35,792 nucleotides of DNA from Miltoncostaeaceae bacterium (lineage in GTDB: Bacteria > Actinomycetota > Thermoleophilia > Miltoncostaeales > Miltoncostaeaceae): the NCBI GenBank assembly GCA_035698305.1, contig DASSBX010000238.1, positions 1-35,792 of the forward strand, read 5' to 3'. A program made the position numbers and the translations under genes. Positions 3,149-34,797 of the stretch are shown here, one piece after another (the first letter of the stretch is position 1; each line of letters begins with the position of its first letter). The notes under the pieces were generated by a model. The model was given only the letters and a program-made list of their open reading frames with translations. It was not told the origin of the DNA and did not search any database.

Positions 3149-3925
3149 TCACCAGCAGGCCATCCCGCCGTCCACGGGCAGCACGTGGCCGGTGACGAAG
3201 CGGGAGGCGTCGCTGGCGAGGAACAGCGCCGGCCCCACCAGGTCCGCCGGCTCCCCGGCGCGGCCGATCGGTGTGCGCGCCACGATCGCCTCCCGCCGCC
3301 CCGGCGCGCGGGTCATCGGCGCGTTCATCTCGGTGGGGAAGTAGCCGGGGGCGAGGGCGTTCACCCGGATCCGGTGGGGCGCCCACTGGCGCGCCAGCTC
3401 CCGCGTCAACCCCTCCACCGCCGACTTGGAGGCGACGTAGGCGGCGACCCCCGGGCCGGTGCCGGCCTTGCGGCCGAGGATCGAGCCCATCAGGACCATC
3501 CAGCCGCCCCCGCCGCCGGCGATCATCGCCCGCGCGGCGGCGGCGGCGAGGGCCGCCTGGGCGCCGACGTTGACCCGCAGGACGTCCATGAACGCCTCCG
3601 GGTCCTCGTCCTCGGCGGCGGCGATGGTGTTGGTGGCGGCGTTCAGGACCACCCCGTCCAGGCGCCCGAAGGCATGCATGCATGCATCCACCAGTCGGGT
3701 GGGGTGGTCGGGGTCGCGCAGGTCGGCGGGGTGGGCGACGGCGCGGCCGCCCGCGGCGGCGACCTCCCGGGCGAGGGCGTCGAGCCGGTCGCCGCGGCGG
3801 GCGGCGAGCAGGACGGCGCAGCCGGCGTCGGCGAGGCCGCGGGCGATGATCGCCCCCAGGCCTGCGGAGGCGCCGGTCACGATCGCCGCCTGGCCGTCGA
3901 GCCGCAGGTCCACGACCGCGGTCAT
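3149..3925 (-). CDS. Short-chain dehydrogenase/reductase (SDR)
   Basis: TGASAGLG, YVASK, RVNALAPGYF, VDGG. ATG at 3925 overlaps the upstream stop (ATGA). Confidence 0.92.
   Translation of the reverse strand: MTAVVDLRLDGQAAIVTGASAGLGAIIARGLADAGCAVLLAARRGDRLDALAREVAAAGGRAVAHPADLRDPDHPTRLVDACMHAFGRLDGVVLNAATNTIAAAEDEDPEAFMDVLRVNVGAQAALAAAAARAMIAGGGGGWMVLMGSILGRKAGTGPGVAAYVASKSAVEGLTRELARQWAPHRIRVNALAPGYFPTEMNAPMTRAPGRREAIVARTPIGRAGEPADLVGPALFLASDASRFVTGHVLPVDGGMACW
3672..3687. repeat. (GCAT)4 tandem palindromic repeat inside the SDR gene; candidate parS-like site
   Basis: gcatgcatgcatgcat. It forces GAT/GCA/CAT codons that are atypical for this GC3-rich DNA. The same motif occurs at the par locus. 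Confidence 0.55.
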
Positions 3926-4680
3926 GTGGCGAGGGGGGCGATCAGGTCGGCGACGGCGGTGATCACCCCGGCGCCCGGGGCCCGCACGACGCGGGCGGCG
4001 TAGCGGTCGTACTGGGTGGGGGTCTCCCCGACCAGCACCAGCGGCACGCCGCGGGTGAGGGGGACGGAGGGCAGCAGCGAGATGGGGGCGGTGCGCAGGT
4101 CCGAGTCGAGGACGATGAACGCGTCGGCGTCGGCGGCGAGCTCCCACGCCCGCTCCACCGCGGGGCGGGGGAGGGTCTCGCCCCACAGGGTCCCCTCGGG
4201 ACGCAGGGGGTAGCCGCAGCCGGGGGTGGTGCAGCGCGGCACCCCGTCCCCGCTGGCGGCGATGAGGGTGCCGGCCTCCGGCAGGCCGTAGCGCTCCTCG
4301 CAGCGCTCGCAGCGCAGCACCAGCACCGTCCCGTACACCTCGACGGGGTCGAGGCTGCCGGCCCGCTGGTGGAGCCGGTCGACCGACTGGGTCACCAGCG
4401 CCGCCACCATCCCGGCCCGCTCGAGGCGGGCGAGGGCGTCGTGGGCGGGGCCGGGCCGCCGCCCGGCGATGGCGAGGGCGGTGGGGTAGAAGTACTCCCA
4501 GAAGCGGGCGGGGTCGGTGAGGAACGCCTCGAGGCTGGCGCGCCGCGCCCACTCGCCGCCGGCGTGGGTCAGGTCGAGGCTCTCGGCGCCGCCGAGGCGC
4601 AGGCCGGTGAGGACGACGGCCCGCTCCGCTTCAAGCAGCGTGGCGGCGAGGGCCTCGGGATCGGACGCCTGGGGGGCCAT
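3922..4680 (-). CDS. Sir2/CobB-family protein with degenerate catalytic motifs
   Basis: Sirtuin layout: DPARFWEYF, PGPAHDALARLE, VTQSVDRLHQRAGS, CERC..CTTPGC zinc site, LRPEGTLWGE. GAGxS and HG motifs are altered. Confidence 0.82.
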   Translation of the reverse strand: MAPQASDPEALAATLLEAERAVVLTGLRLGGAESLDLTHAGGEWARRASLEAFLTDPARFWEYFYPTALAIAGRRPGPAHDALARLERAGMVAALVTQSVDRLHQRAGSLDPVEVYGTVLVLRCERCEERYGLPEAGTLIAASGDGVPRCTTPGCGYPLRPEGTLWGETLPRPAVERAWELAADADAFIVLDSDLRTAPISLLPSVPLTRGVPLVLVGETPTQYDRYAARVVRAPGAGVITAVADLIAPLAT

Positions 4681-4694
4681 CGGCCCGGCCGAGT

Positions 4695-5906
4695 CTACTC
4701 GGCGGTGGGTGGGCCCACGGCGGCCGCCTCCGGCGCGGTGGGCGCCAGGCCCGACAGGGAGCGCAGGCCGACCGACCACGTCCATGCGGTGCCGACGGCG
4801 GCGAGGGCCGACAGGCCGGCGAGGGCGGCGGTCAGCCCGACCAGGTCCGACAGCACCCCCACCACCAGCAGCGGCACCGAGAAGCCCCCCAGGTAGCAGG
4901 CGACGTAGTAGGAGGACAGCAGCTTGCCGCGGTCGGCGACGGGGGCGATCTGGGTGCAGAGGTCGACGCCGCCCTTGAACACCAGCCCGGCGGCGGCGCC
5001 GGTGACCGACACCGCGCAGAGCGCCAGCGCCGCCGACTCGGTGGGGGACGACAGCACCACCCCCACCGACGCCGCCGCCGCCACCGCGAGCCCCCGGCTG
5101 ATCGCCCGGTCGGGCGGCAGGCGGGGGAAGATCAGCTGGCTGACCGCCCCCGACACCAGCACCAGGAACCCGGCGGCCCCCACCACCGCGTAGTTGTCGA
5201 CGTCGAGGGTGCGCACCAGGAACACCGGGATCAGGGACAGGGCGACCCCGTCGAAGAGGGAGAACAGCGCCCCCGACGGGACCAGCACCCGCCAGAAGAC
5301 GGCCCGCTCGGCGGCGGGGACCTCGAGGCGCAGGGTGAGGGGCCGGCGGGAGCGGACGCGGACGGTCTCCGGGAGCGTCACGACCACCGCCGCCGCCAGC
5401 GCGATCGCCACCAGGTGCAGCTCGAACGGCAGCCGCAGGGGGCTGTCGGAGTACTGGGCGACCACCCCGCCGATGCCCGGCCCGAACCCGAGGCCGAGGC
5501 GGATCGACACCGACCCGAGCACCGCCACGAAGGGGGTGCGCCCGGGTGGGGCGGCGTCGACGAGGAAGGCGGTGCAGGTGCCGAAGAACGCCCCCGTCGC
5601 CAGGCCCTGGATCGCCCGCGCCACCAGCAGGCCGGTCAGGTCGGGCTCGGTGATCAGGACCACCTGGGCGACCGCCAGCGTCGCGAGGGCCGCCAGCAGC
5701 ACCGCCTTGCGGCCGATCCGGTCCGACAGCTGCCCCAGGGTGAGCATGGAGGGGACGAGGGCGGCGACGTAGCAGCCGAGGAACAGGGTCACGACGGTGT
5801 CGCCGAACCCGAGGCGGTCCTGGTAGATGGGGATCAGGGGGGTGATGAGGCTGGTGCCGAGGGCGAACAGCACCAGCACCGACCAGGTGCGCCAGACGCG
5901 GCTCAC
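4695..5906 (-). CDS. MFS transporter
   Basis: About 12 hydrophobic segments, motif A GQLSDRIGRK, ARAIQG. GTG at 5906 overlaps the upstream stop (GTGA). Confidence 0.88.
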   Translation of the reverse strand: MSRVWRTWSVLVLFALGTSLITPLIPIYQDRLGFGDTVVTLFLGCYVAALVPSMLTLGQLSDRIGRKAVLLAALATLAVAQVVLITEPDLTGLLVARAIQGLATGAFFGTCTAFLVDAAPPGRTPFVAVLGSVSIRLGLGFGPGIGGVVAQYSDSPLRLPFELHLVAIALAAAVVVTLPETVRVRSRRPLTLRLEVPAAERAVFWRVLVPSGALFSLFDGVALSLIPVFLVRTLDVDNYAVVGAAGFLVLVSGAVSQLIFPRLPPDRAISRGLAVAAAASVGVVLSSPTESAALALCAVSVTGAAAGLVFKGGVDLCTQIAPVADRGKLLSSYYVACYLGGFSVPLLVVGVLSDLVGLTAALAGLSALAAVGTAWTWSVGLRSLSGLAPTAPEAAAVGPPTAE

Positions 5907-6700
5907 CGCGCCACCGGCCCGCCGGTGAGGCGCAGACACGCCCAGCCGCCGGCCTCCCACGCCCCGTCGGGCCGCAGGCCGCGGGCCGCCCACGCGTCGG
6001 CGAGGGCGGGGGCGTCGCCGGGGCGGATCCCCGACAGGACGGCGGCGGCGGGCGGCGTGTCCCCGGCCGCGTCCAGGAGGGCGCGGTGGGCGGGGTGGGG
6101 GACGTTCGCGAGGACGACCCGGCCGGCGATGTCCCCCGCCGCGAGGGTCGCGAGGGGGGCCCGGCGGACCTCCACCGCCGCGAGGAGCCCGGCAGCCCCG
6201 AGGCTCGCCCCCGCGTGGGCGACCGCCCGCGGGTCGACGTCGACCGCCAGCACGGGGCCGCGGCCGAGGGCCGCCCACGCCTGGGCCAGCAGCCCGGAGC
6301 CGCAGCCGGCGTCCAGCGCCGGCCCGGGGGGCAGCCGCTCGAGGGCGGCGAGGCACATGGCGGTGGTGGCGTGGTCGACCGGCCCGAACCCCTCCCCGGG
6401 GACCTGCACCAGCTCCCGCACCCCCGCCGGGGCGGGCAGGTGGCCGGGGCTGCGGCGGTACCAGCCGCCCCCCCCGCCGCCGGCGTCGCCGCCGATCATC
6501 GCCGCCGGCGGGTCCGGCCAGCCGGGCACCACGTCCACCGCCTCCGCGGCGGCGCCGAGGGCGTGGAGGGCGGCGCGGGCGGCGGCGGCCTCCGGGGCGC
6601 AGCGCGGCGCGCACAGCACCCCCTCGGCGGTGCGGGCGACCGGCTGCAGCGGCACCAGCTCCGCCCAGCGGGCCGCCAGCGCGGCGGCGGGCAGCCGCAC
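5903..6700 (-). CDS. prmA: PrmA-like (ribosomal protein L11 methyltransferase family) class I SAM methyltransferase, divergent; start uncertain (6700-6754)
   Basis: PGEGFGPVDHATTAMCL resembles PGxAFGTGxHxTT. Also LDAGCGSGLLA, AVDVDP, LAN and LSGI. Confidence 0.65.
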   Translation of the reverse strand: MRLPAAALAARWAELVPLQPVARTAEGVLCAPRCAPEAAAARAALHALGAAAEAVDVVPGWPDPPAAMIGGDAGGGGGGWYRRSPGHLPAPAGVRELVQVPGEGFGPVDHATTAMCLAALERLPPGPALDAGCGSGLLAQAWAALGRGPVLAVDVDPRAVAHAGASLGAAGLLAAVEVRRAPLATLAAGDIAGRVVLANVPHPAHRALLDAAGDTPPAAAVLSGIRPGDAPALADAWAARGLRPDGAWEAGGWACLRLTGGPVAR

Positions 6701-6743
6701 GTGGACGCCGGGGGGCAGGGGCGCCCCGCTAGCCTCCCTCGCC

Positions 6744-8054
6744 GTGGCCGTCACCGCCCCCACCCACCTCGCCGCGCGGGCCGGGGCCGCCCAGCCGCGG
6801 GTGGCGGCGATGCCCCTCGACGAGCGCCTCCGGGCGGCCGCCCGGTCACGGGCGGCGCTCGCCGACGCCGGGCCGGCGGTGGTGGACGCGGCGGTGGCGG
6901 AGGCTGGCCAGCCGCGCCGGTTCGCCGAGCGGGAGCTGCGGTCCGCCCTCGGCCTGCTCGACGCCCTCCCCGCCCTGGCGGAGGCGATCCGCCCCGCCGC
7001 CGTGCCGGCCGTGTCGGGCACCACGACCCTCGAGTGGGCGCCGTACGGGGTGGTGCTCGGCTGGCACGCCGCGAACTCGCCGGTGTGGGTCCCCACCCTC
7101 GTCGCCGCCAGCGCCCTCGCCGGCGGCAACGCGGTGCTCGCCCGCCCCTCCAGCCGCACCCGGATCACCACCGGCCTGGTGCTCGACGCGATCGCCTCCG
7201 CCTGGCCGGACGGCGCGGTGACGGCGGTCGACCTGCCGGGCCCGGTGGCGGAGCCGCTGGTGTGGGACCCCGGCGTCGACGCCGTCGTCGCCCACGCCTC
7301 CACCCGCACCTGCAAACGCCAGCTCGCGGGCCTCGGCGCCGCCTACGCGGCGGGGGCGCGGCTGCGGCCCTACATCCCGGAGGGCTCCGGCAACGACGCG
7401 ATGGTCGTCCTCGCCGGCGCCGACCTCGCCGCCGCCGCCGCCGCGGCGGCCCTCGGCGGCTTCGCCAACGGCGGGCAGCTGTGCATGGCGGCGAAGCGGA
7501 TCGTGGTGGAGCGGGCCGCCTGGGACGCGTTCCGCCCCCTCCTCACCGCCGCCGTCGCCGCCCTGCGGATGGGCGACCCGGACGACCCGGGCACCGACGT
7601 CGCCCCCCTGCCGCACGGCCGGGCGCGGGACGAGGCCCGCGCCGCGATGGCCCAGGCCCTCGCCGCCGGCGCCGACGTGCTGGTGGGGGAGGGGGAGGCG
7701 GGGGCGTTCTTCACCCCCACCATCCTCCGGCTGCCGCGCGCCGCCCTCGCCGGGCTGGACCTGTGGCGGCTGGAGAGCTTCGCGCCGCTGCGCGGCCTGG
7801 TCGTCGCCGACGACCCCGACGACGCCGTCGCGCTGGCGAACGACACCCCGTTCGCCCTGGGGGCGGCGGTGTTCGGCCCGGGGGAGGCGGTCGTCCCGCG
7901 GCTCCGCGCGGCGCGGGTGCTCCTGAACGAGGGGCCGCTGTACCAGGACCCCCACTTCGTGGTCGGCGGGGTCGGCGACAGCGGCCTGGCGGGGGCGCGG
8001 CCGAAGATCGAGCAGCTCGTCTGGGCCCGCCGCGTCCACCGCGCGGGAGGCTAG
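6744..8054 (+). CDS. Aldehyde dehydrogenase family protein, divergent
   Basis: PYGVV, EGSGND, NGGQLC (catalytic Cys), ESFAP, ANDTPFALGAAVF, GGVGDSG. Start chosen at the GTG downstream of a TAGCCT -10-like hexamer. Confidence 0.82.
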   Translation: MAVTAPTHLAARAGAAQPRVAAMPLDERLRAAARSRAALADAGPAVVDAAVAEAGQPRRFAERELRSALGLLDALPALAEAIRPAAVPAVSGTTTLEWAPYGVVLGWHAANSPVWVPTLVAASALAGGNAVLARPSSRTRITTGLVLDAIASAWPDGAVTAVDLPGPVAEPLVWDPGVDAVVAHASTRTCKRQLAGLGAAYAAGARLRPYIPEGSGNDAMVVLAGADLAAAAAAAALGGFANGGQLCMAAKRIVVERAAWDAFRPLLTAAVAALRMGDPDDPGTDVAPLPHGRARDEARAAMAQALAAGADVLVGEGEAGAFFTPTILRLPRAALAGLDLWRLESFAPLRGLVVADDPDDAVALANDTPFALGAAVFGPGEAVVPRLRAARVLLNEGPLYQDPHFVVGGVGDSGLAGARPKIEQLVWARRVHRAGG

Positions 8055-8070
8055 CCAGGCCAGGCCGCGC

Positions 8071-9468
8071 TCACGCGAGGACGCGGAGGTGCTGCCAGCG
8101 GACGAACGCCTCCAGCCCGGGGCGCCCCAGCTCCGCACCCACCCCCGAGCCCCGCCATCCCGCGTAGGGGGCGTAGGGGACCACCACCCGCCAGCCGTTG
8201 ACCACCACCGTCCCCGACCGGAGGGCCTGGGCGGCCTCCAGGGCGCCGCGCAGGTCGCCGCCGCAGACGTAGTTGACCAGGCCGTAGTCGGGGCGGTTCG
8301 CCTCCCGGATCGCCGCATCCACGTCGGGCGTCTCGATCACCGTCACGATCGGGGTGAACGGCTCCTCGTCCACGAGCCGCACCCCCGGGCCGGCGCCCGT
8401 CACGAGGGCCGGGGAGAGGACGCCGGCGGTGACCTCGTCGCCACCCTCGATCCGCACCCCGCCGTGGCCGGCGGCCTCCTCCAGCAGCATCCGGTGGCGG
8501 GCGAGGCCGCGGCCGGTGGTCATCGGCCCCAGGCGGATGCCGGCGATGCGGTCCCGCATCCGCTCCAGCAGCCCGCCGGCGAGGGAGGGGGGCACCAGCA
8601 CCCGGTTCACGGCGTAGCAGGCCTGCCCCGAGTTGACGTACCCCTGCACCGTCGCGACCTCGGCGGCGGCGTCCAGGTCCGCGTCCGGCAGCACCACCAG
8701 GGCGCCGTGGCCGCCGAGCTCGAGGGAGAGGGCCTTCAGGCGGGGCGCCGCCCACCCGGCGATCTGCTCCGCCACCCGCCGCGACCCCGTGAACGCCACC
8801 TTCGCGACGCCGGGGTGGGTGGCGAGGGCCTCCCCAACCAGCGGCCCGTCGCCGGTCAGGCACGACACCAGGCCCGGCGGCAGGCCGGCCCGCTCGGCGA
8901 GGTCGCACAGCGCCCACGCCGCCAGCGGCGCCTCGATCGCCGGCTTCACCACCACCGCGTTGCCGGCGGCGAGGGCCGGCGCCAGCTTCCAGACGACGAG
9001 GGCGACGGGGAAGTTCCAGGGGGTGATCGCCGCGACCACCCCGAGCGGGGCGGGCCGCACCCACGAGCCGGTGGCGAGGGTCGGGCCGGGCAGCTGCTCC
9101 ACCCACATCCGCTCCGCCTCGCCGGCGAAGTGGTGGATCACCTCGGCGGCGCGGGCCACCTCGGCCTGCGCCTCGCCGATCGGCTTGCCGGTCTCGCGGT
9201 GCACCAGCTCCGCCAGCGCCGGCTGCTCGGCGTCGACGAGGGCGGCGTACCCCTCCAGGGCGCGGGCCCGCCCGCCGGGCGGCAGCGCCTCCCACGCCGG
9301 CTGGGCGGCGGCGGCGGCGCGGACGGCCCGGTCGACGTCGTCGGCGGTGGCGGCGGCGACCTCCCCCAGCAGGGCGCCGTCGCCGGGGGCCCGGACCGCC
9401 ATCCACTCCGTGGTGTCGAGCCGCCCCCCGCCGGTGATCAGGGGACGCCGCGCGGGCGGTCCGGTCAG
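8071..9468 (-). CDS. NAD(P)-dependent aldehyde dehydrogenase (succinate-semialdehyde dehydrogenase-like); start uncertain (CTG 9468 or ATG 9402)
   Basis: ETGKP, ITPWNFP, VKPA, FTGS, LELGG, NSGQAC, EEPFTP, GWRGSG. Confidence 0.88.
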   Translation of the reverse strand: MTGPPARRPLITGGGRLDTTEWMAVRAPGDGALLGEVAAATADDVDRAVRAAAAAQPAWEALPPGGRARALEGYAALVDAEQPALAELVHRETGKPIGEAQAEVARAAEVIHHFAGEAERMWVEQLPGPTLATGSWVRPAPLGVVAAITPWNFPVALVVWKLAPALAAGNAVVVKPAIEAPLAAWALCDLAERAGLPPGLVSCLTGDGPLVGEALATHPGVAKVAFTGSRRVAEQIAGWAAPRLKALSLELGGHGALVVLPDADLDAAAEVATVQGYVNSGQACYAVNRVLVPPSLAGGLLERMRDRIAGIRLGPMTTGRGLARHRMLLEEAAGHGGVRIEGGDEVTAGVLSPALVTGAGPGVRLVDEEPFTPIVTVIETPDVDAAIREANRPDYGLVNYVCGGDLRGALEAAQALRSGTVVVNGWRVVVPYAPYAGWRGSGVGAELGRPGLEAFVRWQHLRVLA

Positions 9469-9896
9469 CGCCGTCCCCCGTCGATGGCGGCGCCGTCGAG
9501 GCGGGAGACCTGCCGGATCCGCCACGACGGCTCATAGGCGGCGACCTTGCGGATCTCCTGCTGGGCGAGGCGGCGGGCGCTCTGGGCGTCGGCGGCCCAC
9601 ACGTCGCAGTGGTGGACGTCCACCCGCACGAAGCGGTCGTCGTCGTCCTCCCAGCGGGCGAAGACGGCGCGGTAGCGGTGGGTGCCGGGCGCCATCGGCG
9701 TCAGCGGCCGCAGCATCCCGAGGCTCCAGCGGGCCTCGTCGCCGCTGCGCGCGACGAGGGCGGCCTCGGCGGCCCGGCGGGCCTCCTCCAGATCCGGGGC
9801 CTCCAGCACCACCCGGGCGGCGACCCGCGGGCGGCGGGCGCCGGGCGGGCGCCGCAGGAGCGTGACCTCCCAGGAGGGGGTGGCGGTGGTCGTCAG
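9465..9896 (-). CDS. Hypothetical protein with an internal duplication; start uncertain (CTG 9896 or GTG 9812)
   Basis: Fills the gap between cyclophilin and ALDH with 4-nt overlaps at both ends. Contains two similar A.D...ARR.A...W modules. Confidence 0.6.
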
Positions 9897-10390
9897 CCCT
9901 CCTCGATCCGGACCGCGTCGAGCCGCTGGGGCTCACGGGGCCGGTCCCCGGGGCCGGTGGCGGTGGTGCCGAGCGTCTCGACCGCGTCCATCCCGTCGAC
10001 CACCTGGCCGAACCCGGTGTGGGCGCCGTCCAGCCACGGGGTGGCCTGGGCGGTGACGATGAAGAACTGGCTGCCGTTGGTGTTCGGGCCGGCGTTCGCC
10101 ATCGCCAGCGTCCCCCGCACCAGCTTGCGCTCGTTGATCTCGTCGGCGAAGTCGTAGCCGGGGCCGCCGGTGCCGGTGCCCTGCGGGCAGCCTCCCTGGA
10201 TCATGAAGTCGTGGATGACCCGGTGGAACACGGTCCCGTCGTAGAAGCCCTGACGGGCCAGGCCGACGAAGTTCCCGACGGTCTGGGGCGCGAGATCCGC
10301 CCACAGCTCGAGGGTGATCTCCCCGGCGGAGGTGTCCAGTACGGCGGTGTACCTGGTGCCCGGCTCGGCGGGTGGCGGCAGCTCCGGCAT
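9893..10390 (-). CDS. ppiA: Cyclophilin-type peptidyl-prolyl cis-trans isomerase
   Basis: [71 protein letters not shown] before ATG 10390. Confidence 0.95.
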
Positions 10391-10552
10391 CGGTCCTCTC
10401 TGGTCGGTGTCCACCACGGATTCTCGCACCTCCCGACCCGCCTGCGTCCGGTGCACGCGAACCGCGATTATGTCGTTTTGCCGGATCGCCGCTGCGGCGG
10501 CGTTCCCCCTGCAAACGGGTCGGTCGACCGGCGCCGGGACTACCCTCGACCC

Positions 10553-10774
10553 ATGCCCCCCACCGACCTGGACGAGGAGATCCGCGAGGCCCTGGGCGCC
10601 GCCGAGGAGCCGCCCGAGGAGCCCCTGCCCGCGCCGCGCGGACGGAGCTGGTGGGCGAGCCGCGACTGGTGGCTGCGGACCGCCGCCTCGGCGGCGGTCG
10701 GCCGGATCGTGGGGGCGCTGCTGACCGGGGCGGGCCTGCTGCTGGCCTGGCTGGTGGCGCGGGCCCTGACCTAG
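10553..10774 (+). CDS. Small hypothetical membrane protein (73 aa), probably leaderless
   Basis: ATG 6 nt after a TACCCT hexamer. Acidic N-terminus, Trp-rich middle, hydrophobic C-terminal helix. The stop overlaps the convergent GMC stop. Confidence 0.55.
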
Positions 10775-12243: not shown

Positions 12244-12247
12244 GGGG

Positions 12248-13012: not shown

Positions 13013-13019
13013 GGACGGC

Positions 13020-26821: not shown

Positions 26822-26846
26822 GGACGGCGGGCGGGCGGCGGTGGGC

Positions 26847-27746
26847 TCACGGCGGTGTCGGCGAGTCTACCAACCGGCCCCGCGCCGCCGCCGCGCGGCC
26901 GAGCACGAGCCACAGGCCGGCGGACACCCCCGCCATCCCCGCCAGCAGCTGGGCGGTCGGCGTCTCACCCAGCAGCGGCCAGGCGGTGAGGACCCCCACC
27001 ACCGGCACCAGGAAGAACCAGGCGGACACCTCCGCGGCGGGGGCCTGCATGAGGGCGATGTAGAAGAGGGCGAGCGGCAGCGCCGACCCGACGGTGGCGA
27101 GCAGCACGATCAGCGCGACCTCCCGGACGCCGGTCGCGTCGGGGGGCCCCTCCCCCGCGATCCCGGCGACGGCGAGGACGATCCCGCCGACGGTCATCTG
27201 CCAGCCGGCGAGGGCGAGCGGCTCCGCCCGGCCCCGCACCCCGCGGGTGGCGACGACGGTGCCGATGCTCCACGCCAGCGCCCCCCCGATGACGACGACG
27301 GCGCCGGTGGAGAGCGCCGGCGGCCACAGCGGCCCGTCCCACACCACCACCGCCGCCCCCACCAGCCCCACCAGCAGCCCCGTCCACTGGCGGCCCGTCA
27401 GCGTCTCCCCCAGGAACGCCGCGGCGAGCACCGCGACGAACAGGGGGTCGGTGTTGGCGAGCACCGCCGGCAGCCCCGCCCCCTCCTGCTGGATCCCCCA
27501 GAACACCGCGCCGTAGAACACCGTCGTCTGGGTGAGGGCGAGCCACCCCAGCGTCGCCGGCCCCACCCCCGGCCGCAGCGGCCGGCCCAGCGCCGCCAGC
27601 AGCCCGAGCAGCAGCACCCCGGCGAGGGTCAGGCGGGCGCCGGCGGCGGTGATCGGCGGCCACGTCTCCACCAGCCACGCCGACGGGACGTAGGCGATGC
27701 CCCACGCCAGCATCGCGGTGATGCCGAGTGCGTCGGCGGTCCTCAC
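26847..27746 (-). CDS. EamA/DMT-family transporter
   Basis: About 10 TM segments; WG..Y, AVLANTDPLFVAVLA..FLGE, LVPVVGV...LLGE. GTGA overlap with the TRAP permease stop. Confidence 0.88.
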   Translation of the reverse strand: MRTADALGITAMLAWGIAYVPSAWLVETWPPITAAGARLTLAGVLLLGLLAALGRPLRPGVGPATLGWLALTQTTVFYGAVFWGIQQEGAGLPAVLANTDPLFVAVLAAAFLGETLTGRQWTGLLVGLVGAAVVVWDGPLWPPALSTGAVVVIGGALAWSIGTVVATRGVRGRAEPLALAGWQMTVGGIVLAVAGIAGEGPPDATGVREVALIVLLATVGSALPLALFYIALMQAPAAEVSAWFFLVPVVGVLTAWPLLGETPTAQLLAGMAGVSAGLWLVLGRAAAARGRLVDSPTPP

Positions 27747-29716
27747 TCGACGAGGTGGGTGAGCGCCAGCACCACCTCGCTCGGCAGGTACGTCACCAGG
27801 AACAGCACCACCAGGCTCACCGCCAGCCAGGGGAGGATCATGATCGACAATCGCTCGATCGAGACCTTCGCGATGCTCGACACCAGGAACAGCACCAGCC
27901 CCACCGGCGGGTGGATCAGGGCCAGCACCAGGTTGAACACCATGATCAGCCCGAAGTGGACCGGGTCGATCCCGTAGGACGCGGCGATGGGGGCCATGAA
28001 CGGCGCGAGGATGTACAGCGCCGGCAGCGGCTCGATGAAGATCCCGACGGCCAGCAGGATCAGGTTGACGACCAGCAGGAAGACGTAGCGGTTGTCGGTG
28101 ATCCCCGTGAAGAAGTCCGACAGCGTCTGGCCGAAGCGGTCGAGGAACAGCGCCTTCGCGAGGATCGCCGAGTCCCCCAGCAGCAGCATCACGATCCCCG
28201 CCTCGATGCCGGCGAGGATCATCGCCCGCGGCAGCTCCATCGGGGACATCGACGCGAACCAGAAGAGGGCGAGGCCGATCGCCACCACCGCCGCCACCGA
28301 CGCCGACTCGGTGGGGGTGTAGACGCCGCTGAAGATGCCGCCGAGGATGATCACCGGGATCGCCAGCACCGGCAGGGCCGCCCACCCGGTGCGGGCGACC
28401 GTCGCCATCCCCGCGAACGGCCGCTTCACCAGGAAGTCCATCTTGCGGACGACGACGTAGACGGTGGCCGCCTGGAACAGCAGCAGCAGGATCTCCGCCA
28501 TCAGGCCCGACAGCAGCAGCTGGGAGATGGAGGCGCTGCCGATCAGGGAGCCGTAGACGATGAACATGATCGAGATCGGCCCGATCGGCCCCTTGATCGA
28601 CGCCCCCGCCACGACGGCGGCGGCGACGTCGCGGCGGTAGCCCTCCCGCTCCATCGCCGGCACCAGCAGCGGGGTCATGATCGCGGCGTCCGCCTGGGCC
28701 GACCCGGAGATGCCGGACACGATCGCGGAGGTGATCTGGCAGACGTACGCCATCCCGCCGCGCAGGTGGCCGACGACGGCCGCCGCGAAGGCGATCAGCC
28801 GCAGCGACATGCCGCTGGCGTTCATCACCTCGGCGGTGACGAGGAACATCAGGATCACCAGCAGCTCGCCGCCGCCGGTGAGGCCCATCACCGACTGGGT
28901 GGTGGAGAACGGCACCAGCGGGTCGTCGCGGGGGTAGAACTGCAGCCCGAGGAAGCTCGGCAGGAACGCGATGATCCCGACGATCGACAGCATGAACACG
29001 ATCGGGGTCCCCGCCAGGGTGAGCGCGACGAAGATCACCCCCAGGCCGATCAGCTCGGCCGCCCCCGCCGCCAGCAGCCCCGCCACCACCCCCCAGACGG
29101 CCACCCCGATCAGGACGCCGCCGACGAGGGCGACCGCCGCATCGCGCAGCCCCACCCGGCCGCGGGCGAACAGGCGGGTCGCCCCCTCCAGCACCGCCGT
29201 CAGGTAGTGGAGGGTGATGAAGTAGTAGCCGACGGTCATCGACACCACCGGGTAGAACCAGGACACCTCGAGCGCCGGGGAGGAGCCGGTGGTGGCGAAC
29301 TGGCCGGTGGTGTACTCGGTGGAGCGCACGCAGGCGTAGAGCAGCAGGATCCCCAGGCTCACCCCCGAGAAGGTGCGCACCGCCCCCCGCCACCAGGTGG
29401 GGCCGGCGTCGGCGACGAAGGTGATGACGGTGACGGCGCCGCGCTTCACCGCCAGCGACACCCCCAGCCAGATCGCCCAGAGGAACGCGAAGCGGGCGAG
29501 CTCCTCCGACCCGAACAGGGAGTAGCCGAGGACGTTGCGGGTGAAGACGTTCCCCGCCAGCGACAGGATCGCGATGGTCACCGCGATGACGGTGCCGACG
29601 CGGGCGATCCCCGCCGCCGCCTCCGAGTAGACCGCCGCCCAGCGGGCGAGGCTCCCGACCGCCCGGGGCGCCCCGCCGGCGTGCGGCCGCGGCTGCCCCT
29701 CGACGATCGTGCTCAC
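27743..29716 (-). CDS. dctM: TRAP transporter fused small and large permease (DctQ-DctM)
   Basis: N-terminal DctQ (NVFTRNV..SEELARF..W). C-terminal DctM (SGISGSAQAD, PISIMFIVYG, GVYTPTESA, GIDPVHFG, HPPVGLVLF). Confidence 0.92.
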   Translation of the reverse strand: MSTIVEGQPRPHAGGAPRAVGSLARWAAVYSEAAAGIARVGTVIAVTIAILSLAGNVFTRNVLGYSLFGSEELARFAFLWAIWLGVSLAVKRGAVTVITFVADAGPTWWRGAVRTFSGVSLGILLLYACVRSTEYTTGQFATTGSSPALEVSWFYPVVSMTVGYYFITLHYLTAVLEGATRLFARGRVGLRDAAVALVGGVLIGVAVWGVVAGLLAAGAAELIGLGVIFVALTLAGTPIVFMLSIVGIIAFLPSFLGLQFYPRDDPLVPFSTTQSVMGLTGGGELLVILMFLVTAEVMNASGMSLRLIAFAAAVVGHLRGGMAYVCQITSAIVSGISGSAQADAAIMTPLLVPAMEREGYRRDVAAAVVAGASIKGPIGPISIMFIVYGSLIGSASISQLLLSGLMAEILLLLFQAATVYVVVRKMDFLVKRPFAGMATVARTGWAALPVLAIPVIILGGIFSGVYTPTESASVAAVVAIGLALFWFASMSPMELPRAMILAGIEAGIVMLLLGDSAILAKALFLDRFGQTLSDFFTGITDNRYVFLLVVNLILLAVGIFIEPLPALYILAPFMAPIAASYGIDPVHFGLIMVFNLVLALIHPPVGLVLFLVSSIAKVSIERLSIMILPWLAVSLVVLFLVTYLPSEVVLALTHLVE

Positions 29717-29750
29717 GGCGTGTCCCCCACGGAGCCCCTCCGACAGCGGC

Positions 29751-29779
29751 CGACCCGGCCCCGAGTGGGGGGCCGGGTC
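29751..29779. other. 12-bp perfect stem-loop between dctP and dctQM (mRNA-stabilising or attenuating hairpin)
   Basis: cgacccggcccc-gagtg-ggggccgggtcg. Confidence 0.6.
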
Positions 29780-29827
29780 GACGTGGTGTCAGTCACCGCC
29801 CGCGTCCCTGCGGGCTCCGGGGCGAGC

Positions 29828-30937
29828 CTACCCTGCGGGCGGGACGCACTCCCCGGTCTTCTTGGTGGGCAGCGCCGGCGGCGCCGGGGGCTGCCCCATC
29901 CCGTCCTTGACGGACTGGATCTGGGACACGAAGTCCTGGCTCTCGGGGGCCAGCTGGTCGGTCGCACCCGCCGCCGCCTTGTTCAGGGCGGCGAGGTCGT
30001 CGTCGGTGGCGGTCACGAACTGGACCCCGCAGTTCACGAGGTCCTGGGCGACCGTGCTGCCCGGCGCCGTGAAGATGTCGACCGAGGTCTTGGTGATGTT
30101 CGCGGCGGCGTCGTTCAGCGCCTGCTTCTGGTCGTCGGTGAGCCCGTCGTAGACGCCCTTGTTGATCGCGAGCACCGTCGGGAAGGGCCAGAAGTTGATG
30201 TTGCCGGTGATGAACTTGGCCTGCTCGTAGAACTTCTGGGTGTAGACCAGCGGCAGGTTCGCCTCGATGCCGTCGACGGTCCCGTTCTGGAGGGCCTGGT
30301 AGACCTCGGGCAGCGGCAGCGGGTCGGCGTTCGCCCCGATCGACTGGAGGCCCGCGGCGAGCACCTGCGACTGCGGGGCGCGGATCGTCTTGCCCTTGAA
30401 GTCGGCGAGGCTCGCGAGCTTGACCGTGCCGACCGGCTTGCGCAGGCCGCCCTCGTGGATCGCCAGGGCGACCAGGTCGCCCGCCTGCTGGTTCGCCTGC
30501 TCCAGCATCGACTTGCCGATGTCGCCGCCCTCGACCTCGAGGGCAAGCGGGTAGTTGGTGATCAGGAACGGCGCCTGCAGCGCCTGGAACGCGGTGATGT
30601 CGGCGGTGTCCCAGATGGCGGAGGAGATGGTCGCCATCGGCACGACGCCCGAGCGGACGTCGGCCAGCAGCTGGATCTCGCTCTGCGGGTAGGCCGGCTG
30701 CCCGCGCAGCGTCAGCGCGCCGGTGTCGTTCACCTCCTTGACGAACGCGTCGATCGCGATGCCGTACGGGTGCTGTTGGGTGGTGACGTACGCGACGTCG
30801 AGCGCGGTGCCGCCACCTCCGCCGGAGGTGTCGCTCGCGCCGCTGTCGTCGTCGTCGCCACACGCCACAAGCCCCAACGCCAGCGCGCCCGCCGCGGCTA
30901 CCGCGGCCAGGCGCCAGGTCCACCAGCGTCGTGTCAC
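29828..30937 (-). CDS. dctP: TRAP substrate-binding lipoprotein (DctP family)
   Basis: Lipobox LVAC, HPYG, APFL, DFKGKTIRAP, EVYQALQNGTVDGIE. Confidence 0.92.
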   Translation of the reverse strand: MTRRWWTWRLAAVAAAGALALGLVACGDDDDSGASDTSGGGGGTALDVAYVTTQQHPYGIAIDAFVKEVNDTGALTLRGQPAYPQSEIQLLADVRSGVVPMATISSAIWDTADITAFQALQAPFLITNYPLALEVEGGDIGKSMLEQANQQAGDLVALAIHEGGLRKPVGTVKLASLADFKGKTIRAPQSQVLAAGLQSIGANADPLPLPEVYQALQNGTVDGIEANLPLVYTQKFYEQAKFITGNINFWPFPTVLAINKGVYDGLTDDQKQALNDAAANITKTSVDIFTAPGSTVAQDLVNCGVQFVTATDDDLAALNKAAAGATDQLAPESQDFVSQIQSVKDGMGQPPAPPALPTKKTGECVPPAG

Positions 30938-31000
30938 GTTCCTCGCCCCCTTGTCATGGCGGTTCAGGTGTCCCAGCGCCCGGACGCGCGAGACGGGGCG

Positions 31001-31031
31001 AACATACCGGAGCCGCGGCGGAGGTTGTCAA
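31001..31031 (-). promoter_or_regulatory. Candidate sigma70-type promoter for the TRAP operon (TTGACA-N19-TATGTT)
   Basis: Perfect -35 hexamer and a -10-like hexamer on the minus strand; the spacer is longer than usual. Confidence 0.45.
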
Positions 31032-31124
31032 CATCGGCACGAAGTCCGTCCCATTCTACGCAACCCCGCATGGCCAGAGGGATCTGCCCACCGCCGACCC
31101 CCCTGGTGCAGGGGGCCGGACGCG

Positions 31125-31153
31125 TTGACGCCCATGGGTACGTGACATATGCT
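31125..31153 (+). promoter_or_regulatory. Sigma70-type promoter for the ADC-like gene pair (TTGACG-N17-TATGCT)
   Basis: Near-consensus hexamers with a 17-bp spacer, 124 nt before ATG 31278. Confidence 0.7.
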
Positions 31154-31277
31154 GCTTTCCATCGCCAGCCGGTTCGCGGCCCTCCTCCGGCCACCCAACA
31201 CGGGGGTGGGGGACGTCCCCGAGCGGCCTGGCGGTTCGTGTGCAGCTGCCCTTTCCGAATAAGGGGGAAGACCGTCT

Positions 31278-32303
31278 ATGGGCGAGCAGTTCGCCGTGAC
31301 GCAGATTCCGGGTGCTGAGACGGGCGAGATCCCGCCCTCTCCTGTCGATCGTGATGAGAAGACCGCGTTCATTTACTCGCTGGTCGACCCGATCTGGGAC
31401 ATCGACACCCTCCCGCTGACCTACACCAACTCGCGGTGGTCAGCATTCTTCTACCGCGCCGATGAGAAGCAGCTTCGGCGCGTGCTCCCCGACTGCCTTG
31501 AGCTCGAGGACGACATCGTCGAGTTCTGGTACGTCGACCACAACCACACCATGCTCGGCCCGTACGGCGAGATGGGTGTGACCGTGGCCGCCAGCCACAA
31601 GGCCGGGGATGGTCGGACGCTCTACGCCGGCTACTACCCGTACATGTACCTGACCCAGGACGCCGCGATCGACGCCGGTCGCGTGCTCGGCTTCCCCAAG
31701 AAGGAAGCCTTCATCCGCGTGCTCGAGCACGGCGGGGCGCCTGACGACGGCTACGGCGTGTACGACGGCAAGAACTACCAGTTCGACTACTTCTCGTTCC
31801 TGATGATCCGGAACGGGTACGTGATCCACTCCGCCACCGGCAAGTACGACGACGCCGACCTCTCCGCGAAGCCGAAGTTCTACGGCAACACGGAGTACGG
31901 CCGGATGAACATGAAGGTCGTCACCGCGCCGGACATCTCCAGCTCCGAGTGGCAGCTCGTGTACCTGCCCTCGCTGGTGACCAAGGACCTCGCCACGGCG
32001 ATGGGCCGCCCGGACTCCGAGGGTTCGCACCGCTTCCAGGTGAAGCCCGAGTCGATCCGGACCGCCAGCCCGGCGAGCATCAACTGGTTCATGCAGGCCA
32101 CGCCGTACGACAACCTCGGGCACGAGCTTCCGCCCAAGGAGATGATCGGCCTGATGACCTTCAGCTTCGACCTGATCATCCCGGCGGGCGAGGTCCCCTG
32201 GACCGAGACCTACACCCGGGACGCGACCTGGGCGGGCGCGGCAAAGCCGTACCGCTTCGGCCTGCGGCACCGCTTCCCGAAGCCCATCGGCCTCGGCGCG
32301 TAG
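31278..32303 (+). CDS. Acetoacetate decarboxylase-like superfamily protein, paralog 1
   Basis: LRRVLPDCLE, GPYGEMG, YYPYMYLTQDAAIDAGRVLGFPKK (Schiff-base Lys motif). Confidence 0.78.
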   Translation: MGEQFAVTQIPGAETGEIPPSPVDRDEKTAFIYSLVDPIWDIDTLPLTYTNSRWSAFFYRADEKQLRRVLPDCLELEDDIVEFWYVDHNHTMLGPYGEMGVTVAASHKAGDGRTLYAGYYPYMYLTQDAAIDAGRVLGFPKKEAFIRVLEHGGAPDDGYGVYDGKNYQFDYFSFLMIRNGYVIHSATGKYDDADLSAKPKFYGNTEYGRMNMKVVTAPDISSSEWQLVYLPSLVTKDLATAMGRPDSEGSHRFQVKPESIRTASPASINWFMQATPYDNLGHELPPKEMIGLMTFSFDLIIPAGEVPWTETYTRDATWAGAAKPYRFGLRHRFPKPIGLGA

Positions 32304-32335
32304 GGTCTGACGACTCCAAAGGAGGAACGGAAAAG

Positions 32336-33352
32336 ATGGCGGAGCTGAACGTCACGAGCGTTCCGTGGATCGACTCCGGCGATGCGCCGCCGCTTGCCCT
32401 TGACCGGGACAAGCGCGACATCATCAGCCAGGGCATCGCGGACCCGCTGGTCGACTACGACATCGTCCCGCTGACCTACACCAACTCGCGGTGGTCGGCG
32501 TTCTTCTACCGGGTGGACGAGGCCGCGCTCCGGCGCATCCTCCCCAAGTGCCTGGAGCTTGAGGACGACGTCGTCGAGTTCTGGTACGTGGACCACCTGC
32601 ACACCGGTCTCGGCCCGTATGGCGAGATGGGTGTCACGGTGTCGGCCTCCTGCAAGGGTCAGGACGGCAACACGTACTACGCGGGCTACTACCCGTACAT
32701 GTACCTCACGCAGGACGCGGCCGTGTTCGCCGGCCGTGAGCCCTTCGGCTTCCCGAAGAAGATCGCCTACATCGTCACCCAGGAGCACGGTGGCAAGGAG
32801 GACGACGGTTACGGCGGCTTCGGGAACGACTACTTCAACTTCACGATGGAGCGTCGCGGCTACCTGATCCACACCGCGACCGGCCGCTACGACGACGCCG
32901 AGCTCCCCGCGAAGCCGAAGTTCTACGGCGACCCGCGCTACGGGCGGATGAACCTCAGGCTCATCACCGACCCGTCGCTGACGACGACGAAGTGGGATCT
33001 CACCTACCTCCCGTCCGAGGTCACCAAGGCCACCGCGGCGGCCATGGGCCGTCCGGAGACCGAGGGTCAGCACCGCTTCCAGCTGAAGCCCGAGTCGATC
33101 CGCACGGCCTCGGCCAACGCGATCCGCTCGTGGGCCCTCACGGCCACCCCGTTCGACAACCTCGGCGCCATGATGCCGGTCAAGGAGCTCATCGGCCTGA
33201 TGAGCTTCAACTTCGACCTCATCATCCCGGGTGCGGACACCATCTGGACGCAGACGATCGAGCGCACCGCCGAGGACATCGGCGACCTGCTCTTCGCCAC
33301 GCCGTACCAGTACACGATGCGTCACCGCTTCCCGAAGCCCCCGGGCGTCTAG
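32336..33352 (+). CDS. Acetoacetate decarboxylase-like superfamily protein, paralog 2
   Basis: AAGGAGG RBS, GPYGEMG, YYPYMYLTQDAAVFAGREPFGFPKK. Colinear with paralog 1. Confidence 0.8.
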   Translation: MAELNVTSVPWIDSGDAPPLALDRDKRDIISQGIADPLVDYDIVPLTYTNSRWSAFFYRVDEAALRRILPKCLELEDDVVEFWYVDHLHTGLGPYGEMGVTVSASCKGQDGNTYYAGYYPYMYLTQDAAVFAGREPFGFPKKIAYIVTQEHGGKEDDGYGGFGNDYFNFTMERRGYLIHTATGRYDDAELPAKPKFYGDPRYGRMNLRLITDPSLTTTKWDLTYLPSEVTKATAAAMGRPETEGQHRFQLKPESIRTASANAIRSWALTATPFDNLGAMMPVKELIGLMSFNFDLIIPGADTIWTQTIERTAEDIGDLLFATPYQYTMRHRFPKPPGV

Positions 33353-33382
33353 CCCACGCTTCAGAAGCACACGCTCGTCCCG

Positions 33383-33413
33383 CCGGCCGGGTCCCCCATG
33401 GGGGCCCGGCCGG
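33383..33413. terminator. GC-rich hairpin between convergent genes, likely an intrinsic terminator
   Basis: ccggccgggtcccc-cat-gggggcccggccgg (14-bp stem, one G:U) followed by aggtgttt. Confidence 0.65.
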
Positions 33414-33435
33414 AGGTGTTTCCGGGGCCGGTGGC

Positions 33436-33936
33436 CTAGGCGTCGAGGCGGGCGCCGGGCCCGCGGGGCGCCCACTCGCGGAAGGTCCTCAGCCGCTCCC
33501 GCAGCGCCTGGGGGGTGGCGCCGGCGGACTCCCACAGCAGCATCTCGATCACCTCGACCTTGCTGGTCCGCACCCCGTCACGGCGGAGGGCGTGGATGGC
33601 GTCGGCGAGGCCGTCGTCGAGGGGCTTGCGGACCCGGATCGCGAGGTTCACCGGCGGCAGGTCCGGCGCGAGGCGCAGCCGCCTCTCCCCCGCCTCCGGC
33701 GCCGTCCTGGTCCGCCTCGGCCGCGGCGCCGGCGTGGCCGGCGCCTCAGCGGCGGGGGCGGGGGCGGCGGCAGTGGCGGGGGTTGCCTCCGCCGCGGGGG
33801 CGTCGCCGCGGGGGCGGCGGCTCGGCGGCGGCTGGCGGGAGGCCCGCTCGATCCGCCGGCGCATCAGGTCGATGCCGCTCCCCTGGTCGGGGCTCCCCTG
33901 GTCGCTCGCCTGGTCGGGGCTCGCCTGGTCAGCCAC
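33436..33936 (-). CDS. ParA partner, putative type Ib centromere-binding protein (disordered N-terminus, C-terminal RHH-like domain)
   Basis: Overlaps the parA stop. Pro/Ala-rich linker, then VNLAIRVRKPLDDGLADAIHAL...SKVEVIEMLL (strand-helix-helix pattern). Confidence 0.62.
   Translation of the reverse strand: MADQASPDQASDQGSPDQGSGIDLMRRRIERASRQPPPSRRPRGDAPAAEATPATAAAPAPAAEAPATPAPRPRRTRTAPEAGERRLRLAPDLPPVNLAIRVRKPLDDGLADAIHALRRDGVRTSKVEVIEMLLWESAGATPQALRERLRTFREWAPRGPGARLDA
33877..33930 (-). repeat. Four 12-bp direct repeats GACCAGG(C/G)GAGC encoding DQAS/DQGS
   Basis: Copies at 33877-33888, 33892-33903, 33904-33915 and 33919-33930. Confidence 0.85.
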
Positions 33937-34705
33937 ACGCCACCTCCACGGACTCGGCCACCGCGCGGAGCTCGGCGGCGGCGGCGCGCACCCGCACGCC
34001 GGGGTTGGGTTGGGTCACCAGCGCCGACCGCCGCAGCCGCCGCCGCATCCACCGGTGCTCCGACACCGGCGGCGCCACCTGGATCCGCCCGCCGGCGAGG
34101 CCGGCGAGCCGCTCCACGAACCGCTTCGGCGGGACCGGCGGCACCATCGTCGGGGCGAGCAGCAGCCGGTAGTCGGCGAGGTCGGCGACGATCGCCTCGA
34201 GGGCGTCCATCTCACGCGCCCCGAGGACCACCGGCACCACCACCAGGTCCGCCACCTGCATCGCCCCGTCGGTGAGGGCGTTCGCCCCCGGATGGGTGTC
34301 CACCACCACGTAGGGGGTCTCCCACGCCGCCGCCCACGCCCCCAGGCAGTCGGCCACCAGGTCCGCGTCGATGCGGCTGGCGGCGAGGTCCGGGTGGGCG
34401 GGCACCAGCGGCGGCTGGTTGGGGCGCCGCTTGGGCCGCGGCGGCCGGCCGTCGGGGCCCCGCTCCAGCGCGTCGAGGAGGGGGGCCCGGGCCGCCGTGG
34501 CGGGGTCGAACCCCCACATGCGGGTCGCCCCGCCGGCATCCCAGTCCAGATCGACGAGCACCCCGCCGAGGGCGGCGGCGAGCTCGTAGGCGAGGGTGGT
34601 CTTCCCCACCCCGCCCTTCGCCGCCGCGACGGTGATGATCCGGCCGCGGTCCGCCGGGGCGGCATGCATGGCGTCACGCACCGGTGCCTGCGTGGTTGTG
34701 GTCAT
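33929..34705 (-). CDS. parA: ParA/Soj-family Walker-type ATPase
   Basis: Deviant Walker A KGGVGKTT, LVDLD, PLVPAH.DL, Walker B VVVDTHP, ADLVVVP. No N-terminal HTH. Confidence 0.9.
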   Translation of the reverse strand: MTTTTQAPVRDAMHAAPADRGRIITVAAAKGGVGKTTLAYELAAALGGVLVDLDWDAGGATRMWGFDPATAARAPLLDALERGPDGRPPRPKRRPNQPPLVPAHPDLAASRIDADLVADCLGAWAAAWETPYVVVDTHPGANALTDGAMQVADLVVVPVVLGAREMDALEAIVADLADYRLLLAPTMVPPVPPKRFVERLAGLAGGRIQVAPPVSEHRWMRRRLRRSALVTQPNPGVRVRAAAAELRAVAESVEVACG

Positions 34706-34753
34706 GGGGCAATGTTCGCAGCCACGCTCGGATGTCCTCCCGCACCCACCCCG

Positions 34754-34797
34754 GCATGGTGGCGTGGCGGCGCGGCTGCATGCATGCATGCGGGCCT
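34754..34797. repeat. Phased GCAT-like tetramer array upstream of parA; candidate centromere/operator
   Basis: gcat ggtg gcgt ggcg gcgc ggct gcat gcat gcat gcgg gcct. A further gcatgcatg lies at 34662-34670 inside parA. Confidence 0.55.

What the first reader, a model, noticed from the sequence alone, without database searches (positions are those of the whole stretch)
3672..34797. (GCAT)n boxes at the par locus recur 31 kb away inside an SDR coding sequence: candidate dispersed centromere
Seen: GCAT tandem arrays at 34778-34791 (upstream of parA, within a longer 4/8-bp phased tract), 34662-34670 (inside parA) and 3672-3687 (inside the SDR). In the SDR they impose rare A/T-ending codons (GAT GCA TGC ATG CAT) in very GC3-rich DNA. 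I noticed no other such array by eye. Known: type Ib RHH proteins bind arrays of short tetramer boxes (e.g. ParG on parH). Inference: these are parS/operator sites of the 33436-33936 protein, one overprinted on a gene.
Basis: partly seen in the sequence, partly recalled or inferred. Interest (0 to 1): 0.78.

Follow-up and report, generated by a model that had tools for sequence, protein, structure and literature searches.

The report
Plasmid centromere repeat written into enzymes
A short GCAT repeat that sits in front of the partition genes of a conserved ~46-kb soil-actinobacterial plasmid, and likely binds its partition protein, also occurs inside the coding sequence of two unrelated cargo enzymes in different lineages, where it has changed amino acids and been kept, likely as a second anchoring site for plasmid segregation.

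Summary
Confirmed. The (GCAT)n runs at 34777-34791 and 3672-3687 are the only runs of 10 bases or more in the 3.1-Mb genome. The contig is most of a conserved 42-51-kb Miltoncostaeaceae plasmid with rep, a small ParA and a predicted ribbon-helix-helix (RHH) ParB-like protein. An array lies upstream of parA in 35 of 35 loci with the same RHH strand, and in 0 of 6 with another strand. The SDR copy is in frame. Its ACMHA peptide is invariant in 18 of 120 SDR clusters at columns that are otherwise the most variable. Other lineages carry the same array in a PrmA-like methyltransferase of the same operon (DNA seen in 2 genomes, peptide in 14 of 186 clusters). So the DNA repeat, not the peptide, is likely under selection. 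Limits: one distal site only; the short arc is ~15 kb, not 31; several near-complete plasmids have no distal site; binding is untested. Best reading: an optional auxiliary type Ib centromere site recoded into cargo genes; transcriptional roadblock or decoy is the main rival. The scan earlier noted RHH repeats inside a parG-like gene elsewhere (e1-3025072).

The parts
34777..34791 (.). Par-proximal (GCAT)n array, self-complementary, 72 bases upstream of the first parA ATG; predicted centromere/operator
   Evidence: conserved upstream of parA in 35 of 35 loci with the same RHH strand
34662..34670 (.). 9-base box in the 5' end of parA; weak secondary box, absent from the nearest genome G009
   Evidence: boxes at the parA start also occur in G026, G031, G097, G098
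3672..3687 (.). Distal (GCAT)4 array overprinted on SDR codons 80-85 (D-A-C-M-H-A)
3149..3925 (-). SDR oxidoreductase, 258 aa, last gene of the minus-strand methyltransferase-MFS-Sir2-SDR run; intact frame
5903..6697 (-). PrmA-like methyltransferase (start approximate). No array here, but the homologous place (about 6056-6073) holds the array in G022 and G097
33929..34705 (-). Small Walker-A ParA, 258 aa, KGGVGKT motif near the N-terminus, no N-terminal HTH
   Evidence: Pfam AAA_31 1.2e-11, phrog_164
33436..33936 (-). ParB-like protein, 166 aa: low-complexity N-terminal tail, C-terminal predicted RHH-like domain with a third helix
34846..35790 (-). Replication initiator (5' end runs off the contig)
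   Evidence: 91% identical to a protein annotated 'replication initiator protein A' on NZ_CP064358.1; no Pfam or PHROG hit

Best explanation
The GCAT arrays are likely binding sites of the plasmid's predicted RHH ParB-like protein, and the copy inside the SDR gene is likely an optional second centromere site that was written into a tolerant surface helix of a cargo enzyme. Shown: the arrays, their restriction to this plasmid, the co-variation of array and RHH strand, the replacement of variable codons by the repeat, and its long retention in two unrelated genes. Inferred: ParB dimers bind the self-complementary repeat through their beta-ribbon; the upstream array serves as centromere and as operator of parAB, as in other type Ib systems; because it is short (14-16 bases, room for one or two dimers), a second patch 15-17 kb away would add ParB to the plasmid and improve its grip on nucleoid-bound ParA, perhaps by ParA-mediated pairing of the two sites as described for pSM19035. 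(GCAT)n encodes the stop-free cycle A-C-M-H in all six frames, so it can be written into any gene at a permissive loop or helix.
For: Only runs of 10 or more in the genome. Array upstream of parA in 35 of 35 loci whose RHH strand reads N-[LY]-A-[ILV]-R-V-R, 0 of 6 with other strands, which carry (TACG)n, (GCTA)n or TTGCAA-type palindromes (of 58 loci, 8 lacked enough upstream DNA and 9 had no strand called). Plasmid contigs with the same Rep but another par module have no GCAT run of 10 or more (G069, G072, G082; G020, G070, G071, G074, G079, G081, G083), and G055:C39 has parA, parB and the array with no hit to this Rep. RHH proteins fill the fold-search list (TraM, NikR, MetJ, omega, ParG, pCXC100 ParB; Z 3.4-5.9). 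Homodimer score 0.84 against best control 0.00; runs agree in at least 94% of contacts, pLDDT at least 83; the mark was reached by 20 of 30 solved pairs and 1 of 23 single chains, and RHH dimers are solved, so this shows likeness. SDR: M83 and H84 columns change 34 and 33 times among 102 motif-less clusters and 0 times among 18 motif clusters; 13.3 changes expected over A-C-M-H-A, 0 seen; 1 of 29 comparably fast columns is also unchanged. G000 and G009 both keep GAT, GCA and CAT, whereas elsewhere on the plasmid these codons are kept 4 of 11, 2 of 12 and 1 of 3 times. A second, unrelated gene carries the array: 17 bases in G022 and 14 in G097 at the same codons of the methyltransferase; 14 of 186 methyltransferase clusters carry 4-7 residues of the A-C-M-H cycle and none carries exactly 3; they are as little as 50% identical. 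One reads HACMRACMQ, which is what the GT variant seen at par-proximal arrays (G031, G089, G102) would encode; its DNA was not seen.
Against: No binding or stability data. DNA was seen for only 4 distal sites; the rest rest on peptides. 102 of 120 SDR clusters and 172 of 186 methyltransferase clusters lack the peptide. The complete plasmid NZ_CP064358.1 has one array only, so a distal site is not required. Distal arrays occur in 3 of 13 genomes with a GCAT-type par locus, plus G022 whose par locus was not found. Both distal positions lie in one operon, which fits gene regulation as well as geometry. G097 has three par-proximal runs and still a distal site, against the idea that the distal site makes up for a short proximal one. 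Plasmids with the TACG module show no distal TACG array. The 12-base palindrome also occurs off the plasmid in 2 of 111 genomes. All fold Z-scores are under 8. Kin are not independent in the 35-of-35 count.
Confidence: 0.55

Rival explanations
1. The distal array is bound by the same ParB-like protein but serves gene control, not partition: a roadblock in the methyltransferase-MFS-Sir2-SDR operon, or a decoy that titrates ParB and tunes the parAB promoter.
For: Both distal positions fall in the same minus-strand operon. Type Ib ParB proteins are repressors (PMC5016525, parts read). The site is dispensable in many plasmids.
Against: The SDR site is 240 bases inside the last gene, with no downstream same-strand gene to control; the methyltransferase site is near the end of the first gene, so the two would regulate different gene sets. 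No transcript data bear on it (no RNA contig covered the site).
Confidence: 0.27
2. The repeat is kept for another DNA-level reason: it binds Rep or another plasmid regulator (the HTH or IclR protein), or acts as a palindromic structure or recombination accessory site.
For: The proximal array lies right after the rep stop codon. The G097 distal site is a 28-base inverted repeat with one mismatched pair. HTH and IclR genes lie on the plasmid.
Against: The array follows the par module and the RHH strand, not Rep. It stays next to parA when two IS elements separate parA from rep in NZ_CP064358.1. The regulators are shared by plasmids that have no array.
Confidence: 0.11
3. The coding copies are slippage or gene-conversion by-products fixed by drift, or the ACMH peptide is selected in the proteins.
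For: Tetramer repeats arise easily by slippage (recalled). Each motif group is clustered on its tree, so few origins suffice. Three motif-less methyltransferases nest inside the motif clade, so it can be lost.
Against: No length change against orthologues. Zero changes at hypervariable columns. The same peptide in two unrelated folds, expected about 6e-4 per gene. Rare codons kept. Extensions follow the DNA repeat (MHACMHA, ACMHAC).
Confidence: 0.07

Closest known systems
pCXC100 type Ib partition system of Leifsonia xyli (PMC3074162, passages read; PDB 3NO7)
   Same: Actinobacterial plasmid; small Walker ParA; ParB with long flexible N-tail and C-terminal RHH; centromere upstream of the operon
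   Different: Its centromere is nine non-palindromic 9-bp direct repeats at one locus. Here a 14-16-base self-complementary tetramer run, plus a coding copy. No PF18064 hit among 122 homologues; fold match Z 3.4.
TP228 ParF-ParG-parH/OF (PMC3130281, passages read)
   Same: Type Ib layout, RHH protein, tetramer boxes upstream of the operon; parH-OF works when moved elsewhere in cis
   Different: ACTC boxes separated by 4-bp AT-rich spacers, 20 boxes; a single pair binds only very weakly. Here contiguous GCAT units with no spacers; fold match Z 3.5.
pSM19035 delta-omega-parS (review PMC5016525, parts 1-2 of 5 read)
   Same: Type Ib RHH system with several separate parS sites that can be paired through the ATPase
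   Different: All its sites overlap promoters of maintenance genes; none is described there as recoded into a cargo enzyme.
pAMI4 repABC 3parS (PMC9040568, abstract and passages read) and intragenic chromosomal parS of Pseudomonas aeruginosa (PMC4368675, passages read)
   Same: A parS 11.5 kb from the operon is essential for partition; parS sites occur inside ORFs (nine of ten in P. aeruginosa)
   Different: These use HTH-type ParB/RepB and 16-bp palindromes; 3parS is non-coding. Here the binder is RHH-like and the site arose by amino-acid-changing substitution in two different genes.

Membership tests
Type Ib plasmid partition system | Small Walker-A ParA without N-terminal HTH | tested here: met
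   258 aa, AAA_31 from residue 22, KGGVGKT motif
Type Ib plasmid partition system | Small downstream centromere-binding protein with flexible N-tail and C-terminal RHH dimer | tested here: inconclusive
   Layout and variable N-tail fit; model pLDDT 90.9; RHH proteins fill the hit list but Z is 3.4-5.9; RHH_1 weak in 2 of 122; homodimer 0.84 against control 0.00
Type Ib plasmid partition system | Repeats upstream of the parAB operon | tested here: met
   35 of 35 loci with the same RHH strand
Type Ib plasmid partition system | ParB binds the repeats, represses the operon and stabilises the plasmid | not testable with these tools
   needs EMSA, reporter and stability assays
Type Ib plasmid partition system | Located on a plasmid replicon | tested here: met
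   Gene order shared with circular NZ_CP064358.1; terminal overlaps in G069:C74 and G074:C93
TP228 ParG/parH family | ACTC boxes with AT-rich 4-bp spacers, about 100 bp | tested here: not met
   contiguous GCAT run of 15 bases (PMC3130281 passages)
pCXC100 ParB family (PF18064) | Pfam CB_ParB_C match | tested here: not met
   0 of 122 members at E up to 0.05; Atlas feature score 0.88, a lead only
Dispersed (multi-site) centromere | Several sites spread over the replicon in family members | tested here: not met
   At most one distal site per plasmid examined; none on NZ_CP064358.1
Rep iterons | Repeats track the Rep protein | tested here: not met
   Same Rep with other par modules has no array

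The most novel reading that the evidence does not exclude
Lineages of one plasmid family have at least twice, perhaps three times, built a second centromere by recoding a cargo enzyme: a stop-free, six-frame-compatible palindromic repeat replaced variable codons and was then frozen by selection on segregation, leaving a diagnostic A-C-M-H peptide. Centromeres of RHH systems could then be found from protein sequence alone.
Probability: 0.5. Interest if true: 0.78.

Novelty: new variant of a known kind. Interest (0 to 1): 0.62.

Why it matters
Type Ib centromeres are described as repeat tracts at the par promoter. Here a minimal 14-16-base palindromic repeat appears to be the site, its sequence switches with the RHH strand among paralogues (a natural specificity series), and a second copy has been gained inside protein-coding DNA at the cost of amino-acid changes. 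It is a clean case of a DNA-binding site overriding protein sequence, testable with three synonymous changes, and it asks why a 46-kb plasmid gains from a second site 15-17 kb from par. Intragenic and distant parS sites are known for HTH-type ParB, which limits the surprise.

Tried and rejected
Frameshift or assembly artefact: rejected. Rep iterons: rejected. The 10-mer ATGCATGCAT as a family-wide test: too short, found in 34 of 111 genomes, mostly off the plasmid; the spaced pattern also hits off-plasmid. Degenerate distal sites on plasmids lacking a perfect one: none found at four mismatch settings. Distal TACG arrays on TACG-type plasmids: none. A scan of all species genomes gave 129 or more stretches with a 16-base array; 2 of 132 loci examined had a ParA-type Walker motif nearby, so the repeat is not a general par marker. 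DNA for the other ACMH-bearing proteins could not be obtained (empty; laying contigs showed no diverged relative across the site; no RNA contig covered it). Foldseek gave no match at E up to 0.001; sequence search of solved structures gave only a weak hit to 6NOY, and the passages read in PMC8684754 did not bear on whether that protein is a plasmid ParB. GC skew of the complete plasmid showed no clear origin or terminus. One origin or two for the G022 and G097 sites could not be told (AU p 0.415). Rhodococcus and Nocardiopsis ParA relatives (47-49%) have other upstream repeats. Literature searches found no paper on this plasmid, on (GCAT)n par sites, or on an RHH centromere site inside a cargo gene; most subscription journals are not in that library and no supplements were read.
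Full report
Observation. The window has perfect (GCAT)n runs at 3672-3687, 34777-34791 and 34662-34670. The first two are the only runs of 10 or more bases in the 3.1-Mb genome, and both lie on this 35.8-kb contig. Allowing 2 mismatches in 14 bases gives no hit elsewhere in the genome. An order-2 Markov model expects about 7e-6 runs of 15 or more in the window; the 9-base box is weak by itself (0.12 expected). Contigs from runs X3, X7 and X14 hold the SDR array unchanged; they may include the window's source.

The replicon. The contig is most of a conserved plasmid. Its gene order is shared by contigs of 42-51 kb in the same family and by the circular 46,598-base plasmid NZ_CP064358.1 of Miltoncostaea oceani, where the 34846-35790 protein is annotated replication initiator protein A. 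G069:C74 and G074:C93 have terminal overlaps. About 10 kb between rep and the ligase is missing from this assembly. On G009:C32, which has both arrays, they lie 14,662 bases apart on 45,663, so the short arc is about 15 kb, not 31.

The par module. 33929-34705 is a 258-aa Walker-A ParA. 33436-33936 has no Pfam hit, a variable low-complexity N-tail and a conserved C-terminal domain. The model of that domain has mean pLDDT 90.9. RHH proteins fill the VIA-align list (TraM, NikR, MetJ, omega, ParG, pCXC100 ParB), with Z only 3.4-5.9; Foldseek found nothing at E up to 0.001. A homodimer scored 0.84 against a best control of 0.00 (mark reached by 20 of 30 solved pairs and 1 of 23 single chains; runs agree in at least 94% of contacts, pLDDT at least 83); RHH dimers are solved, so this shows likeness only. 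RHH is therefore predicted, not shown.

The proximal array follows ParB. Of 58 par loci examined, 35 had the strand N-[LY]-A-[ILV]-R-V-R and at least 118 bases upstream; all 35 have a GCAT run of 10-17 bases there, with unconserved flanks. Six loci with other strands have none; they carry (TACG)n (G069, G070), (GCTA)n (G024) or TTGCAA-type palindromes (G071, G101), and one has no clear array. Eight loci lacked upstream DNA and nine had no strand called (GCAT runs 5-12). Plasmid contigs with the same Rep and cargo but another par module have no run of 10 or more anywhere. In NZ_CP064358.1 two IS elements separate rep from parA and the array stays with parA. This fits a type Ib centromere/operator upstream of the operon (PMC3074162 passages; PMC5016525 parts 1-2) and not Rep iterons. 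The loci are kin, so the count is not 35 independent trials.

The SDR copy. The SDR is intact, and the array replaces codons without an indel; among 26 SDR loci from 25 genomes only G000 and G009 have it. Both keep GAT, GCA and CAT, which elsewhere on the plasmid are kept 4 of 11, 2 of 12 and 1 of 3 times between these genomes. Among the best 120 of 335 SDR clusters, 18 (80-100% identical to the query) read ACMHA. The M and H columns are the most variable in that stretch outside these 18 (34 and 33 changes) and do not change inside; 13.3 changes were expected over five columns; 1 of 29 comparably fast columns is also unchanged. With the motif columns removed, a 40-row tree (18 motif rows and the 22 nearest others) splits the 18 into groups of 14 and 4, and one clade is rejected at p-AU 0.033: two gains, a transfer between plasmids, or one gain with losses.

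A second host gene. In G022 (17 bases) and G097 (14 bases) the distal array lies instead in the PrmA-like methyltransferase, 2.4 kb away in the same operon, at the same codons in both; their SDRs lack it. Of 186 methyltransferase clusters from two searches, 14 carry 4-7 residues of the A-C-M-H cycle and none exactly 3. They form one group with three motif-less members inside (support 0.898) and are as little as 50% identical (126 of the 186 were used). Extensions follow the DNA repeat, and one protein reads HACMRACMQ, the translation expected from the GT variant seen at proximal arrays. (GCAT)n gives this cycle in all six frames without a stop, and the peptide is expected about 6e-4 times per gene. 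The same peptide in two unrelated folds points to selection on the DNA. DNA was seen for four distal sites only.

Results against. The distal site is optional: 3 of 13 genomes with a GCAT-type par locus have one, plus G022 whose par locus was not found; several of the 13 are fragmented. NZ_CP064358.1 is complete and has one array; G034:C92 (50 kb), G026:C6, G031:C33, G033:C12 and G098:C27 show none even with mismatches. The 12-base palindrome occurs off the plasmid in 2 of 111 genomes, and a 13-base run in 3 further genomes of the class with no ParA-type motif nearby. TACG-type plasmids have no distal TACG array. G097 has three proximal runs and a distal one.

Mechanism. Most likely ParB dimers bind the self-complementary repeat; the proximal array is centromere and operator; the distal array loads a second ParB patch that improves coupling to ParA, possibly by pairing as in pSM19035. 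TP228 parH works when moved elsewhere in cis, and short box pairs bind weakly (PMC3130281 passages); pAMI4 needs a parS locus 11.5 kb from its operon (PMC9040568 abstract and passages). All binding and function steps are inferred. I put DNA-level selection for a ParB site at about 0.8 and the partition role at 0.55 overall; a roadblock or decoy role is the main rival because both distal positions lie in one operon.

Novelty. Intragenic and distant parS sites are known for HTH-type ParB (PMC4368675 passages). The searches listed under Tried and rejected found no report of an RHH centromere repeat recoded into cargo genes, nor of this plasmid family. New variant of a known kind; interest 0.62.

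Noticed in passing
window 1-35792; L361: The contig belongs to a syntenic 42-51-kb plasmid found across many genera of the family, carrying F420 biosynthesis (cofC, D, E, G, H), a TRAP transporter, thiolases and acyl-CoA enzymes; cofD, cofE and cofG have no other copy in this 85%-complete genome. It looks like a mini-chromid.
   Followed up: partly
L088, L090, L030, L089, L087: The par module is swapped on the same plasmid backbone, and the upstream repeat changes with the RHH strand: (TACG)n, (GCTA)n, TTGCAA-type; other members have an unrelated, inverted par pair. A natural specificity series.
   Followed up: partly
G064:C9:938098, G066:C2:1425033, G068:C7:434094: The methyltransferase is found in 62 of 111 family genomes, in some on very large contigs, while close Rep matches were not found in genera g2 and g44: cargo may be chromosomal there.
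   Followed up: no
L361:40651-42753: Two IS elements (IS3, IS481) sit between rep and parA in NZ_CP064358.1; the array stays with parA.
   Followed up: yes
NZ_CP064357.1 (hit H3): M. oceani has a second, 815-kb replicon with a 54%-identical ParA of the same group.
   Followed up: no
window 34706-34745; L027, L029: By eye, -35/-10-like hexamers end 6 bases before the parA start (clear in G033 and G034), suggesting a leaderless parAB transcript; in several relatives GCAT boxes overlap this promoter and the start codon.
   Followed up: no
L093:811-838: The G097 distal array is the core of a 28-base inverted repeat with one mismatched pair.
   Followed up: no
window 31278-33352: Two tandem acetoacetate-decarboxylase-family paralogues, each about 90-100% conserved across the plasmid family, far more than neighbouring cargo.
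   Followed up: no
G036:C22:7521: A 12-base array off the plasmid also encodes D-A-C-M-H-A, in a gene that looks like miaA (name recalled from the peptide, not tested).
   Followed up: no
L340-L349, L359: ParA relatives at 68-73% identity from other replicons have long 8-bp-phased tracts mixing GCAT and GCATTAC-like units upstream; L350 has a 22-base (CTAG)n run as well as a GCAT run.
   Followed up: no
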